A stretch of DNA of 38,108 nucleotides from a virus. Its lineage: Duplodnaviria > Heunggongvirae > Uroviricota > Caudoviricetes. The notes beneath the pieces were generated by a model. It searched no databases. It saw nothing but the letters and a program-made list of their open reading frames with translations, and was not told the DNA's origin. The stretch is from positions 1 through 38,108 of the IMG/VR virus record IMGVR_UViG_2563366933_000009. The stretch is one strand, 5' to 3'. This document shows, piece by piece, positions 23,212 to 35,789 of the stretch. The translations under genes and the position numbers were made by a program. Position 1 is the first letter of the stretch; every line of letters begins with the position of its first letter.

Positions 23212-23456
23212 GTCTTACCCCCAATAAGGGGATTTGCTCTATTTAATTAGGAATAAGGTCGATTACTGATAGAACAAATCCAGGCTACTGTGTTTAGCAA
23301 TCAGATTTGTTCGTGACCGATATGCACGGGCAAAACGGCAGGAGGTTGTTAGCGCGACCTCCTGCCACCCGCTTTCACGAAGATCATGTGTAGAAGGCAG
23401 CAGCGTAACTATCACTGATGAATTCAGGATAGCCAGTGGCTACGGCTCAGTTTGGG

Positions 23457-23583
23457 TTGTGGCGGCCGGAATCGAACCGGCTTCCATCGGTGCGCTGCCG
23501 ATTGCAGTACGCGCGGCGGTCAGCTACATGACTAGTATTTTCACTGTCGCCTATCTGCTAGCTCGCCATTGAGCTTCACCACA
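23457..23583 (-). ncRNA. Degenerate tRNA-like element (possible tRNA pseudogene or tRNA-derived structured RNA)
   Basis: Minus strand: 7-bp acceptor TGTGGTG/CGCCACA, D-arm GCTC-AATGGC-GAGC, anticodon-like arm ATCGG-CAGCGCA-CCGAT, T-arm GCCGG-TTCGATT-CCGGC, but about 50 nt inserted between D and anticodon arms and a non-canonical anticodon loop. Confidence 0.3.
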
Positions 23584-23703
23584 ACGATAAGAGCACTCGG
23601 TGCATTTAAGCCAAGCCCCATAAGGGAGAATGCTCTTACCTGTTGTGCAAACAAAAAAGCCACCGTCGCAACTTAAGAGTCACTAACGGCAGCTTATGCG
23701 AAT

Positions 23704-31232: not shown

Positions 31233-31263
31233 CGCTCTTAAAAATTAAGCCCTGAAGAAGGGC
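31233..31263 (+). promoter_or_regulatory. nutL (boxA CGCTCTTAA, boxB GCCCTGAAGAAGGGC)
   Basis: Matches lambda nutL boxA and boxB, upstream of the N gene. Confidence 0.8.
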
Positions 31264-31461
31264 AGCATTCAAAGCAGAAGGCTTTGGGATTGGATGAATG
31301 AGCAGGCTGATGCTCGACCAATGTATAAACAGCGCTCATGGCAAGCAGTAACCAATCTGCGCCTCAAGACAGCGTCACTGGTAGTGCGGGCGCTCTAACC
31401 AGTAAGCCGGGGTTCAGCGCCGGCCATCCAATCACCAAAGCTAACTGACAGGAGAATCCAG

Positions 31462-31788
31462 ATGGATGCACAAACACGCCGCCGCGAACGTCGCGCAGAG
31501 AAACAGGCTCAATGGAAAGCAGCAAATCCCCTGTTGGTTGGGGTAAGCGCAAAACCAGTTAACCGCCCTATTCTCTCGCTGAATCGCAAACCGAAATCAC
31601 GAGTAGAAAGCGCACTGAATCCGATAGACCTTACGGTGCTGGCTGAATACCACGAACAGATTGAAAGCAACCTGCAGCGTATTGAGCGCAAGAATCAGCG
31701 CACATGGTACAGCAAGCCACGCAGTGAAATGGGTGTGACTTGTGTTGGTCGCCAGAAAATGAAATTAGGCAGCAAACCACTTATTTGA
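31462..31788 (+). CDS. N: Antitermination protein N (lambda-type)
   Basis: MDAQTRRRERRAEKQAQWKAANPLLVGVSAKPVNRPILSLNRKPKSRVESALNPIDLTVLAEY... is near-identical to lambda N. Confidence 0.95.
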   Translation: MDAQTRRRERRAEKQAQWKAANPLLVGVSAKPVNRPILSLNRKPKSRVESALNPIDLTVLAEYHEQIESNLQRIERKNQRTWYSKPRSEMGVTCVGRQKMKLGSKPLI

Positions 31789-35274: not shown

Positions 35275-35789
35275 AACAAATTTCACTAATTGAGATGGAT
35301 GGATTTCTGAAAGGTAAATGCATCCCAAGTGATTTAAAGGTTAACGAAACAAACGCTGAATATCTGGTGCGTAAATTTGCTGAAGCGGAGGCCAAGTGCG
35401 CGGCGCTGGCAGCGGAGAATGCGTGGCTGAAGTCTGGCGCTATGGACGAAATCAAGGTTATCAACCGTGGAGGTCAGGCATATTGCGTAAAAGATGGAGT
35501 GCAAGTTAATCCCATGTATGCAAGAGGGTGGAATGACTATCGCGCAAAGTCTCTGCAATCAGACACCCCAGCCACCGATGCTTTCCTGGCTGAAGTACGG
35601 GCGCAGGGGGTGGATGCTGCTATAGAAGCTGCAAAAAATCTGGTGGCCCAAGAATATGAGTGTAAGGATTTCAAAGCGGCGCAGAGTGATTGCTGTATGC
35701 ACCCTGGTTCAGACCTGGTAGGGAAGGTTGAAATGACTGAGTGGTTAGTTGACTTTGCTGCCCAGCTTCGCAAAGGAGGCAACCAGTGA
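35271..35789 (+). CDS. Ea22-like family protein (first of tandem pair)
   Basis: Internal ATG coupled to the upstream stop; coiled-coil region with ENAWLKSG motif shared with the next ORF. Confidence 0.55.

What the first reader, a model, noticed from the sequence alone, without database searches (positions are those of the whole stretch)
23457..23583. tRNA-like element with an expanded region between the D and anticodon arms, between Q and the holin
On the minus strand there is a 7-bp acceptor stem, a canonical D-arm, a canonical T-arm with TTCGATT loop, and an anticodon-like stem-loop, but about 50 extra nt after the D-arm and a non-canonical anticodon loop (A at 33, C at 37). Lambdoid phages often carry tRNA genes at this position. 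This could be a decayed tRNA, an unusual tRNA-like RNA, or a remnant integration target.
Basis: seen in the sequence. Interest (0 to 1): 0.55.

Follow-up and report, generated by a model that had tools for sequence, protein, structure and literature searches.

The report
tRNA-shaped phage RNA with extra arm
Between the late-gene activator Q and the lysis genes of this lambda-like prophage lies a 130-base element that folds like a transfer RNA carrying one extra long arm; compensating mutations preserve the fold in many phages of enteric bacteria, it cannot be an ordinary decoding tRNA, and it belongs to an RNA family that I could not find described and whose job is unknown.

Summary
Window 23585-23456 (minus strand) folds into a five-arm cloverleaf. 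It has an acceptor-like stem, a D arm, a 55-nt extra arm inserted between the D arm and a short anticodon-like arm, and a canonical T arm.

It is neither chance nor decay. I found 66 distinct versions in phages and prophages of Escherichia, Salmonella, Klebsiella, Enterobacter, Superficieibacter and Pantoea. They keep 96.7% of pairs, against 29-48% when partners are slid, and 16 pairs show two-sided compensatory changes.

It is not a decoding tRNA:
- A8, A33 and C37 replace the canonical bases.
- Positions -1:73 and -2:74 are base-paired and covary.
- CCA is not consistently encoded.
- ARAGORN finds no tRNA in the window; Rfam's only match near the element is a sub-threshold tmRNA hit.

A hexamer in the loop of the extra arm is self-complementary in all 66 versions, once through G-U pairs. 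That suggests kissing-loop dimers.

Relatives occupy operon leaders. They lie between Q and holin as here, or between nutL and N, where a 20-bp closing stem is sequence-homologous to lambda's N-leader stem. Others sit beside real tRNA genes in Salmonella siphoviruses.

Best reading: a tRNA-derived, probably tRNA-Arg-derived, structured RNA released from leader transcripts and acting as a tRNA mimic. Its function is unproven.

The parts
23456..23597 (-). Whole conserved module: a 12-nt leader plus the five-arm tRNA-like fold. Homology to other phages starts and stops at these borders.
   Evidence: BLAST blocks end at 23597/23586 and at 23456. Covariance model R1 scores 164.6 bits on 23590-23449.
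23586..23597 (-). Single-stranded leader AGUGCUCUUAUC. It contains GCUCUUA, the boxA core of this phage's own nutL. Its role is inferred only.
   Evidence: The leader is conserved as AGUGCUCUU(U/A)(C/U)C in subfamily A copies whose upstream flanks are otherwise unrelated. The boxA consensus GYTCTTTAANA comes from PMC5725501. The nutL boxA CGCTCTTAA lies near window 31233.
23577..23585 (-). 5' strand of the acceptor-like stem, GUUGUGGUG (9 bp; the inner 7 bp correspond to tRNA positions 1-7).
   Evidence: Nine pairs, 98% paired, four with two-sided changes, including the two outermost pairs (-2:74 and -1:73).
23561..23574 (-). D arm GCUC-AAUGGC-GAGC, with the GG of a tRNA D loop.
   Evidence: 99% paired and nearly invariant. 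RNAalifold adds an A-U fifth pair.
23504..23558 (-). Extra 55-nt arm. It consists of basal helix GCAG/CUGC, internal loop AUA / GCGCGUA, helix GGCG-A-CAG / CUG-AC-CGCC, and a 20-nt apical loop.
   Evidence: Helices 3 and 4: eight of 11 pairs have two-sided changes (for example CG:36 GC:25 AU:2 UA:1, and AU:36 GC:30). Several arm types swap between relatives.
23531..23536 (-). Self-complementary hexamer ACUAGU in the apical loop; a candidate kissing-loop dimerisation site.
   Evidence: All 66 variants are self-complementary: ACUAGU 36, UCUAGA 13, UCGCGA 11, UCUGGA 3 (through G-U pairs), GCUAGC 2, ACCGGU 1. No other window of the RNA is a consistent partner.
23508..23514 (-). Near-invariant GCGCGUA, the 3' side of the internal loop of the extra arm (opposite AUA at 23552-23554). 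Its role is unknown.
   Evidence: Alignments A1, A2 and A5.
23486..23502 (-). Short, invariant anticodon-like arm AUCGG-CAGCGCA-CCGAU (A33, G34 C35 G36, C37). It resembles the anticodon arm of tRNA-Arg(ACG).
   Evidence: 100% paired. Only loop positions 32-34 vary. The arm is also invariant in hits found with a D-arm pattern only. One assembly annotates the element as tRNA-Arg.
23465..23481 (-). T arm GCCGG-UUCGAUU-CCGGC with a canonical T loop.
   Evidence: 99% paired, two pairs with two-sided changes. This arm drives the weak tmRNA match in Rfam.
23456..23464 (-). 3' strand of the acceptor-like stem, CGCCACAAC. It is followed by CCAAAC and has no free discriminator-CCA end.
23650..23695 (-). 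Context: a terminator-like hairpin (17-bp stem plus a U run) about 30 nt downstream of a TTGACA hexamer (23732-23727). It is the likely early stop of the late-promoter transcript, upstream of the element.
   Evidence: Fold. Not called by the consensus scan. The position after Q is shown.
23331..23366 (-). Context: a second terminator-like hairpin, GGCAGGAGGU...ACCUCCUGCC followed by GUUUUG, between the element and the holin gene.
   Evidence: Fold (z = -4.2).

Best explanation
The element is a gene-like module for a structured, tRNA-derived RNA. It is a tRNA body, most like tRNA-Arg, that has gained a 55-nt arm between the D arm and the anticodon arm. It has lost the features needed for decoding (A8, A33, C37), and its acceptor stem is lengthened and closed.

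It has no conserved promoter of its own. It is transcribed as part of a strong phage leader, here the late transcript that Q lets through the first terminator. I infer that host RNases then release it as a stable L-shaped RNA. In copies in the N leader the enzyme would be RNase III, acting on a 20-bp closing stem. In this copy, whose stem is only 9 bp, it would be RNase P and/or other tRNA-processing enzymes.

I also infer that the RNA acts in trans as a tRNA mimic, binding or titrating a protein that recognises tRNA, possibly tRNA-Arg. I infer further that two molecules pair through the self-complementary hexamer of the extra arm.

Shown here: the fold, its conservation and covariation, the loss of decoder features, the self-complementary loop, the leader and tRNA-cluster contexts, and the homology of the closing stem to lambda's N-leader stem.

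Inferred: transcription, processing, dimerisation and the trans-acting mimic role.
For: - Fold and covariation.
- Sharp module borders, in at least four unrelated contexts.
- No protein gene is shared by all contexts; the most frequent cluster is in 39 of 129 loci. This argues for an RNA that works with host or distant factors.
- In gmqsjt-1, Seszw1, Akira and L084 the element lies on the strand opposite to the tail genes. It follows a promoter-like site and is followed about 100 nt later by real tRNA-Ile/Met and tRNA-Arg genes. That is where a co-processed RNA gene would sit. Phage T4 shows the same layout: tRNAs, two stable RNAs of 139 and 119 nt, and a homing endonuclease.
- The canonical D-loop GG and the T loop UUCGAUU are kept invariant, as expected if the tRNA elbow is what gets recognised.
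- In the short arm only loop positions 32-34 vary, while C35 and G36 stay fixed. From general knowledge, C35 and G36 are identity nucleotides for arginyl-tRNA synthetase.
- The hexamer is self-complementary in 66 of 66 variants, with four or more independent double changes and one G-U version. That marks it as an RNA-level feature, not a DNA-level one.
- N-leader copies have a covarying 9+11-bp stem. Its sequence continues into that of the lambda N leader. From my own knowledge of Steege 1987, Kameyama 1991 and Wilson 2002, RNase III cuts there; PMC5725501 says only that this leader is highly structured.
- A stable 96-nt RNA from the equivalent P22 leader has been detected (PMC13397905).
Against: - No transcript, processing site or phenotype for this element was available to me, and I found no paper that describes it.
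- In most lambdoid copies it sits in a leader directly upstream of a regulated gene, so a purely cis role would explain the position equally well.
- CCA is not consistently encoded, and the end of the stem is paired. RNase P processing and aminoacylation are therefore doubtful.
- The similarity to tRNA-Arg is modest. argQ ranks first of 15 tRNAs compared, but by a small margin.
- The family is narrow and its core is very similar everywhere. Part of the conservation may therefore reflect recent horizontal spread.
Confidence: 0.5

Rival explanations
1. It is a cis-acting leader module. The fold exists to shape the leader transcript. It could bring an upstream Nus/N loading site (nutL, or the boxA-like leader here) next to the downstream ribosome-binding site. 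It could offer an RNase III or RNase P cut that uncouples them, or stabilises the downstream message. It could also help RNA polymerase read through the next terminator. On this view the tRNA-like shape is only a robust folding scaffold.
For: - In subfamily B the element lies exactly between the nutL boxB and the Shine-Dalgarno sequence of N. In L011 and Ecol_545 it replaces the interior of lambda's N-leader hairpin while keeping lambda's closing-stem sequence.
- That 20-bp stem covaries.
- This window's own N leader carries a different, equally structured cassette in the same stem. The interior therefore looks exchangeable.
- In the window the element lies between two terminator-like hairpins of the late leader and is preceded by a boxA-like heptamer.
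- Nus factors plus a structured leader repress N translation (PMC5725501).
Against: - The same module, with the same invariant loops, occurs in siphoviruses on the strand opposite to the neighbouring genes and next to tRNA genes. No regulated gene follows there.
- In the window the holin start codon is 245 nt away, with another hairpin in between.
- An exchangeable spacer would not need an invariant D/T elbow, an invariant short arm, or a covarying self-complementary loop.
Confidence: 0.3
2. It is a working, if odd, tRNA-Arg (anticodon GCG or UCG) that decodes CGN codons. The extra arm is either tolerated or removed.
For: - One RefSeq assembly annotates the 127 nt as tRNA-Arg.
- The short arm has a 5-bp stem and a 7-nt loop with C35 G36, position 34 varies G/U, and a 4-nt variable region precedes a canonical T arm.
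- Lambdoid phages carry Arg and Ile tRNA genes at this position (general knowledge; compare).
Against: - A33 occurs in nearly all variants and C37 in all, where tRNAs have U33 and a purine at 37. Position 8 is A instead of U.
- Positions 73 and 74 are base-paired and covary.
- CCA is absent in many relatives.
- ARAGORN finds nothing. No tRNA or tRNA-Sec model matches even at E<=10.
- No splicing system is known for a hairpin at position 26/27 in bacteria (general knowledge).
Confidence: 0.04
3. The conservation is at the DNA level. The element would be a landing pad or cargo of homing endonucleases, or a recombination hot spot, and the RNA fold would be a relic of the tRNA gene from which it came.
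For: - An HNH_3+AP2 endonuclease gene lies within 1 kb in 25 of 129 loci, in four different contexts.
- Module borders are sharp and arm types are exchanged between relatives, as after gene conversion.
- T4's tRNA cluster likewise holds the homing endonuclease SegB.
Against: - Compensatory changes keep 16 RNA pairs. G-U pairs are tolerated, including in the loop hexamer UCUGGA, which is not a DNA palindrome.
- Most loci, this window included, have no endonuclease gene nearby.
- Homing would explain the spread but not the maintenance of the structure.
Confidence: 0.06
4. It is a decaying tRNA pseudogene or a leftover attachment site, with no function.
For: It is not annotated in 174 of 175 E. 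coli genomes that carry it. It also has non-canonical tRNA positions.
Against: - Covariation is strong and the paired fraction is high.
- The family is present in phages of six host genera with an invariant core.
- It occupies several different positions, no integrase was among the shared neighbouring genes, and no partner half-site was seen.
Confidence: 0.02

Closest known systems
Canonical bacterial or phage tRNA, specifically tRNA-Arg(ACG/NCG)
   Same: It has acceptor, D, anticodon-like and T arms in tRNA order. The D loop has GG and the T loop is UUCGAUU with G53-C61. The variable region is 4 nt. The short arm UCGG-C..CG.A-CCGA resembles the arm of E. coli argQ, and one RefSeq assembly annotates the element as tRNA-Arg.
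   Different: It is 127-130 nt long, with a 55-nt arm at position 26/27. It has A8, A33 and C37. Pairs -1:73 and -2:74 are formed. No CCA is reliably encoded. ARAGORN and the Rfam tRNA models do not detect it.
Phage T4 stable RNAs species 1 and 2 (rnaC, rnaD)
   Same: These are stable RNAs of 139 and 119 nt with unknown function, encoded in a phage tRNA cluster next to tRNA-Arg and a homing endonuclease. rnaC ends in a T-arm-like hairpin, CCGGGUUCGAAUCCCGG. The element shows the same genomic logic in Seszw, Akira and gmqsjt-1.
   Different: There is no specific sequence or structure homology. Model R1 gives rnaC 14.4 bits, less than it gives T4's real tRNAs. No D arm and no self-complementary loop are evident. 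rnaD does not fold significantly.
Lambda N-leader hairpin (the RNase III processing site between nutL and N)
   Same: Subfamily B copies sit at the same place. They share lambda's closing-stem sequence, GGCUUUGGGGUGUG / CACACCACCAAAGCU, and the flanking nutL and N sequences. The stem is 20 bp long and covaries.
   Different: Lambda's interior is unrelated: R1 gives 8.7 bits, the same as for the reverse strand. The copy in this window is in the late leader, has only the 9-bp stem, and has lost the leader-trailer pairing. RNase III cleavage in lambda is taken from my knowledge of the literature, not from a tool result.
tRNA-like domain of tmRNA
   Same: T arm plus acceptor 3' strand. This is the only Rfam match (RF00023, 11.4 bits, E = 0.014). 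Model R1 in turn scores a real ssrA gene at 25.9 bits.
   Different: The score is far below the gathering threshold of 47 bits. There is no tag reading frame, no pseudoknots and no G3-U70, and the element is one third of the length of a tmRNA. ARAGORN reports no tmRNA.
Dimerisation-initiation kissing loops (for example HIV-1 DIS)
   Same: A six-base self-complementary sequence is displayed in a hairpin loop and flanked by purine-rich spacers. Its identity changes between lineages while self-complementarity is kept.
   Different: This is an analogy of mechanism only. No dimer has been shown, the loop here is larger (14-20 nt), and the host molecule is unrelated.

Membership tests
Decoding tRNA | Detected by tRNA gene finders and by the Rfam tRNA models | tested here: not met
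   ARAGORN finds 0 genes in the window. Rfam gives no tRNA or tRNA-Sec match, even at E<=10. One RefSeq annotation does call it tRNA-Arg.
Decoding tRNA | Seven-nucleotide anticodon loop with U33 and a purine at position 37 | tested here: not met
   The loop is CAGCGCA: A33 (U in one variant only) and C37 in all variants.
Decoding tRNA | Single-stranded discriminator base and 3' CCA end | tested here: not met
   Positions equivalent to 73 and 74 pair with -1 and -2 and covary (GC 56/AU 5/GU 4; UA 37/GC 17/AU 9). CCA is absent in many relatives.
Decoding tRNA | Cloverleaf with D-loop GG, T-loop UUCRANY and a length of 73-93 nt | tested here: inconclusive
   The elbow elements are present and invariant. 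The length, however, is 127-130 nt because of the 55-nt extra arm, and position 8 is A.
Decoding tRNA | Aminoacylation and use on the ribosome | not testable with these tools
   This needs charging assays or tRNA-seq.
tmRNA (RF00023) | Score at or above the Rfam gathering threshold; tag-peptide reading frame; pseudoknots | tested here: not met
   11.4 bits against a threshold of 47, and only the 3' T-arm/acceptor part aligns. ARAGORN finds no tmRNA.
Lambda-type N-leader RNase III hairpin | Position between nutL and the N ribosome-binding site, with a long closing stem homologous to lambda's | tested here: not met
   The window copy lies between Q and holin and has a 9-bp stem. Relatives in subfamily B do meet this feature.
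Lambda-type N-leader RNase III hairpin | Cleavage by RNase III | not testable with these tools
   This needs an rnc mutant comparison or in vitro cleavage.
T4-type stable tRNA-cluster RNAs (rnaC/rnaD) | Sequence or structure homology to rnaC or rnaD | tested here: not met
   R1 gives rnaC 14.4 bits, less than it gives T4 tRNAs.
T4-type stable tRNA-cluster RNAs (rnaC/rnaD) | Encoded beside phage tRNA genes and co-processed with them into a stable RNA | tested here: inconclusive
   Adjacency to tRNA genes holds in four siphovirus loci but not in this window. Stability and processing were not testable.
Any Rfam 15 family | Match at the gathering score | tested here: not met
   0 matches in the whole window.

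The most novel reading that the evidence does not exclude
The RNA is a phage counter-defence or host-takeover decoy. On this reading it is a dimeric tRNA-Arg mimic made in bulk from the strongest early (pL) or late (pR') leaders. It would soak up a tRNA-directed host or rival-prophage enzyme. Candidates are an anticodon-arm nuclease of the P2 Old type, an Arg-specific anticodon nuclease, or arginyl-tRNA synthetase. Its release from the leader by RNase III would be the same event that tunes N expression. The window-type arm even carries paired CAG/CUG at the equivalent of positions 28-30 and 40-42, the motif that P2 Old cuts in tRNA anticodon stems (PMC12445682). Other arm types lack that motif.
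Probability: 0.12. Interest if true: 0.8.

Novelty: new variant of a known kind. Interest (0 to 1): 0.6.

Why it matters
Phage-encoded tRNAs and tRNA look-alikes are now central to the arms race around tRNA-cleaving defence systems. Even so, non-decoding tRNA-shaped RNAs of phages, such as T4 species 1 and 2, have remained unexplained for fifty years.

This family has three useful properties. It is small. It is common: 175 of 5426 complete E. coli genomes carry it, as do cultured phages such as HK75, Akira, Skate/Seszw, PdC23 and a P22-like phage. It is also backed by unusually clear covariation, which makes it an accessible model.

It also ties a classic regulatory site, the RNase III-processed leader of lambda N, to a family of exchangeable structured RNA cassettes. 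One of these cassettes is tRNA-shaped and appears built to dimerise.

On the practical side, genome annotation either ignores the element or calls it tRNA-Arg. A covariance model would settle that.

Tried and rejected
- ARAGORN on the window found nothing. Rfam gave nothing at gathering thresholds and only a sub-threshold tmRNA tail at permissive ones.
- The D-arm pattern scan of one genome per species returned 84 stretches. About 79 were chance matches inside coding sequence. Only five were real, all enterobacterial apart from one probable contaminant.
- I compared the core without the extra arm against E. coli genomes, hoping to identify the parent tRNA. It found only the element itself, because the database is too large for short tRNA similarities. 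A small local comparison put argQ first, but weakly.
- I tested whether lambda's own N-leader interior is a degenerate copy. It is not: 8.7 bits, the same as for the reverse strand.
- I tested whether one prophage carries both an N-leader copy and a late-leader copy. In Ecol_545 it does not, and no viral locus had two copies.
- I looked for an intramolecular partner for the loop hexamer. There is none.
- I looked for a protein gene that always accompanies the element. There is none.
- Literature searches turned up the prophage Pas sRNAs (PasD relates to STnc100, a different RNA just downstream of Q), phage tRNA-like RNAs, and the lambda N leader. None describes this element.
- The key lambda papers (Wilson 2002, PMC126142) were not held.
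- The 40-aa ORF at 23541-23663, and the 'polyubiquitin' or 'hypothetical protein' calls over the element in some phage records, are spurious. The region is constrained as paired RNA and carries four UAG triplets.

Full report
**What is there.** On the minus strand, window 23585-23456 reads as follows:

- GUUGUGGUG, the 5' strand of the acceptor-like stem
- AA
- GCUC-AAUGGC-GAGC, the D arm
- UA
- a 55-nt hairpin (23558-23504)
- A
- AUCGG-CAGCGCA-CCGAU, the short anticodon-like arm
- GGAA
- GCCGG-UUCGAUU-CCGGC, the T arm
- CGCCACAAC, the 3' strand of the acceptor-like stem

The element lies 153 nt downstream of the stop codon of a Q antiterminator (Pfam Phage_antitermQ). It lies 245 nt upstream of a lambda-family holin gene.

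A TTGACA hexamer (23732-23727) and a terminator-like hairpin with a U run (about 23695-23650) precede it. A second terminator-like hairpin (about 23366-23331) follows it. The element therefore sits in the leader of the late operon, after the first stop signal.

**Is it more than chance?** The single-sequence fold yields the cloverleaf, but with a modest z-score of -2.5. The comparative evidence is decisive.

BLAST finds the module in 95 phage records and in 175 of 5426 complete E. coli genomes, always on the chromosome. Homology starts at 23597/23586 and stops at 23456. A pattern scan of IMG/VR gave more than 119 further viral contigs. Together these gave 66 distinct versions.

On that alignment the hand-drawn structure pairs 96.7% of cells, against 29-48% when the 3' partners are slid by 1-3 columns. 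Sixteen of 37 pairs change on both sides while staying paired. None of 500 column shuffles reaches the observed covariation score.

RNAalifold, given no structure, predicts the same five arms, with 11 compensated pairs.

A scan of one genome per bacterial and archaeal species with a D-arm pattern recovered true copies only in Klebsiella, Enterobacter, Superficieibacter and an unnamed Enterobacteriaceae. One further contig was a likely contaminant. With Pantoea phage PdC23 and the Salmonella phages, the family is confined to phages of Enterobacterales.

**It is not a decoding tRNA, a pseudogene or an att remnant.**

- ARAGORN reports nothing. No Rfam family reaches its threshold in the whole window. 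At E<=10 only the 3' end of tmRNA aligns, with 11.4 bits against a threshold of 47.
- Position 8 is A. Position 33 is A in nearly all variants, and position 37 is C in all.
- The two base pairs beyond the canonical seven, equivalent to -1:73 and -2:74, covary strongly (GC 56/AU 5/GU 4 and UA 37/GC 17/AU 9). There is therefore no free discriminator-CCA end, and CCA is missing in many relatives.
- The 'defects' are themselves conserved. The extra arm keeps its helices through many double changes, and the short arm and the internal loop AUA/GCGCGUA are nearly invariant. That excludes decay.
- The module occurs at several different places in different phages, with no integrase or any other protein shared by all contexts. 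That excludes an attachment-site remnant.
- One recent RefSeq assembly annotates the identical 127 nt as tRNA-Arg, while the other 174 genomes leave it blank.

The tRNA-Arg call is understandable. The short arm UCGG-C..CG.A-CCGA resembles the anticodon arm of E. coli tRNA-Arg(ACG), and argQ was the best of 15 tRNAs compared, though by a small margin. Across the family only loop positions 32-34 vary (C/U, A/U, G/U), while C35 and G36 stay fixed.

**The extra arm.** It consists of a 3-4-bp basal helix, the conserved internal loop, a 7-10-bp helix and a 14-20-nt apical loop. At least three sequence types of this arm exist. They are found combined with different acceptor types, so relatives have recombined.

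In the middle of the apical loop lies a hexamer that is self-complementary in all 66 versions: ACUAGU (36), UCUAGA (13), UCGCGA (11), UCUGGA (3), GCUAGC (2) and ACCGGU (1). Moving between these forms needs paired changes. UCUGGA is self-complementary only through G-U pairs, so the constraint acts on RNA, not on DNA.

No other segment of the molecule is a consistent partner. The next best averages 4.65 of 6 and is fully complementary in 1.5% of sequences. A six-base palindrome cannot fold on itself. The simplest reading is therefore a loop-loop (kissing) homodimer. This is an inference.

**Where relatives live**:

- (a) *Between Q and the holin.* This is the window's type. The most common version has a single-stranded leader AGUGCUCUU(A/U)(U/C)C.
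- (b) *In the early-left leader of lambdoid phages.* Here the element lies directly after the nutL boxB hairpin, and where an N gene is present it ends 10-30 nt before the gene's start. In this subfamily the 9-bp stem is prolonged by another 10-11 bp (CUUUGG.../...CCAAAG) past one bulged A. The extension is 94.6% paired, with five pairs changed on both sides.
- (c) *In Salmonella siphoviruses* (Seszw/Skate, Akira, gmqsjt-1, ST1UNAM). The element lies on the strand opposite to the flanking tail genes and downstream of a promoter-like site. In four of these loci it is followed about 100 nt later by real tRNA-Ile/Met and tRNA-Arg(UCU) genes.
- (d) *In other positions,* in PdC23 and several uncultured phages.

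A given prophage seems to carry one copy. In Ecol_545 it is in the N leader only.

**Link to the lambda N leader.** Two relatives, L011 and the Ecol_545 prophage, have lambda's own nutL and lambda's N start. The element sits exactly where lambda has the interior of its N-leader hairpin. The flanking stem sequence, GGCUUUGGGGUGUG...CACACCACCAAAGCU, is shared with lambda.

From my knowledge of the literature (Steege 1987; Kameyama 1991; Wilson 1997, 2002), this stem is the RNase III processing site that modulates N's self-repression of translation. The one paper I could read on the point says only that the sequence between nutL and N is highly structured and that N plus Nus factors repress N translation (PMC5725501).

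Lambda's interior is not related to the element (8.7 bits, as for the reverse strand). This window's own N leader (31283-31440, plus strand) has yet another interior in the same kind of stem. P22's equivalent leader yields a stable 96-nt RNA that ends in the same ACCAAAG motif (PMC13397905). The N leader is thus a slot for exchangeable structured cassettes, and the tRNA-shaped element is one of them.

**How it most likely works.** Shown here are the conserved tRNA-like fold, the loss of decoder features, the closed and sometimes 20-bp stem, the self-complementary loop, and the residence in strong leaders or tRNA clusters without a dedicated promoter or partner gene. The rest is inference.

I infer that the RNA is cut out of the leader transcript. 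RNase III would act where the stem is long. RNase P or other tRNA-maturation enzymes would act where it is short, as here. The released RNA would persist as an L-shaped, possibly dimeric, tRNA mimic that engages something which recognises tRNA.

Three observations favour a trans-acting product over a purely cis device:
- the siphovirus copies lie beside tRNA genes;
- the tRNA elbow and the Arg-like arm are invariant;
- the layout parallels the T4 tRNA cluster, which holds two unexplained stable RNAs and a homing endonuclease.

The main rival is a cis role, and the two are not exclusive. Such a role could be to bring a Nus or N loading site next to the downstream ribosome-binding site, to provide a processing site, or to assist read-through. 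It fits the lambdoid positions and the boxA-like heptamer in the leader (GCUCUUA, identical to the core of this phage's nutL boxA).

**Comparison with known families, and novelty.** The element works like a tRNA-derived mimic. It fails the membership tests for decoding tRNA, tmRNA and every Rfam 15 family. It is not homologous to T4 rnaC or rnaD.

I found no description of it in the searchable literature. A description in a paper the library does not hold cannot be excluded.

I class it as a new variant of a known kind, namely phage-encoded tRNA-like RNAs. Two features are unusual: an extra arm at position 26/27 with a covarying self-complementary loop, and a genetic link to the lambda N-leader processing stem.

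**Most adventurous reading not excluded.** It may be a decoy against tRNA-directed defence nucleases. The window-type arm carries paired CAG/CUG at the equivalent of anticodon-stem positions 28-30 and 40-42, the motif cleaved by P2 Old during P2-lambda interference (PMC12445682). Other arm types lack it, so this is a lead, not a finding.

Noticed in passing
window 31283-31440 (+), with nutL near 31233-31265 and N at 31462-31788: This phage has lambda's pL/nutL and lambda's N (Pfam N36). Its N leader, however, holds a multi-hairpin cassette of about 130 nt that differs from lambda's. The cassette is closed by GGCUUUGGGAUUGGAUG / CAUCCAAUC-A-CCAAAGCU. Model R1 scores it 19.6 bits, about what real tRNAs and tmRNA score. 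Its last hairpin abuts the 3' strand as a T arm would. Fold z = -5.7.
   Followed up: partly
L011 7862-8052, L004/L218 (Ecol_545), L213 (lambda 35380-35504): The base of lambda's N-leader hairpin is sequence-identical to the extended closing stem of N-leader copies of the element. Only the interior differs. The N leader therefore behaves as a slot for exchangeable structured RNA cassettes.
   Followed up: yes
L018, L027, L033, L064, L076, L090 (upstream); L003, L006, L009, L044 (downstream): An HNH_3+AP2 homing-type endonuclease gene (161-198 aa) lies within 1 kb of the element in 25 of 129 loci, in four different genomic contexts. This suggests that the conserved RNA gene serves as a landing pad, as SegB does in the T4 tRNA cluster.
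   Followed up: partly
L001 1734-1892, L009 1732-1808, L006 1733-1809, L084 8097-8173; L091 8704-8774: Real tRNA genes (Ile/Met, Arg-UCU) follow the element by about 100 nt in Salmonella siphoviruses. In L091 an odd 71-nt 'tRNA-Ser(UGA)' lies about 140 nt upstream of an N-leader-type copy.
   Followed up: partly
window 23586-23597 (-): The conserved single-stranded leader AGUGCUCUUAUC contains GCUCUUA, which matches the boxA core of this phage's nutL (CGCTCTTAA). It sits directly before the 5' strand of a long-range helix, as boxA does before the 16S RNase III stem in rRNA operons.
   Followed up: partly
L216 604-730 (NZ_CM160040.1): One RefSeq assembly annotates the identical sequence as a 127-nt tRNA-Arg. 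The other 174 E. coli genomes that carry the element have no feature there. Some phage records place spurious ORFs over it ('polyubiquitin-A', 'hypothetical protein').
   Followed up: yes
window 23555-23558 with 23504-23507 (-): The basal helix of the extra arm is G-CAG / CUG-C, that is, paired CNG motifs at the equivalent of tRNA positions 28-30 and 40-42. P2 Old is reported to cut this motif in tRNA anticodon stems. Other arm types (GGG/CCC, GAG/CUC, GUGU/ACAC) lack it.
   Followed up: no
window 23650-23695 and 23331-23366 (-): Two terminator-like hairpins bracket the element in the late leader. Neither was called by the simple consensus scan, and no Rfam match (STnc100 included) was returned for the first one.
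   Followed up: partly
L215 (E. coli 4750), Q-holin gap of about 970 nt; L218 7500-8096: Other prophages with the same Q/holin flanks carry different inserts of about 570-600 nt at this position. These inserts contain no tRNA (ARAGORN) and no copy of the element.
   Followed up: partly
L143 (contig of a 'Cellvibrionaceae' MAG): It carries the E. coli-type copy with identical flanks. This is probably contamination or mis-binning of enterobacterial prophage DNA.
   Followed up: no
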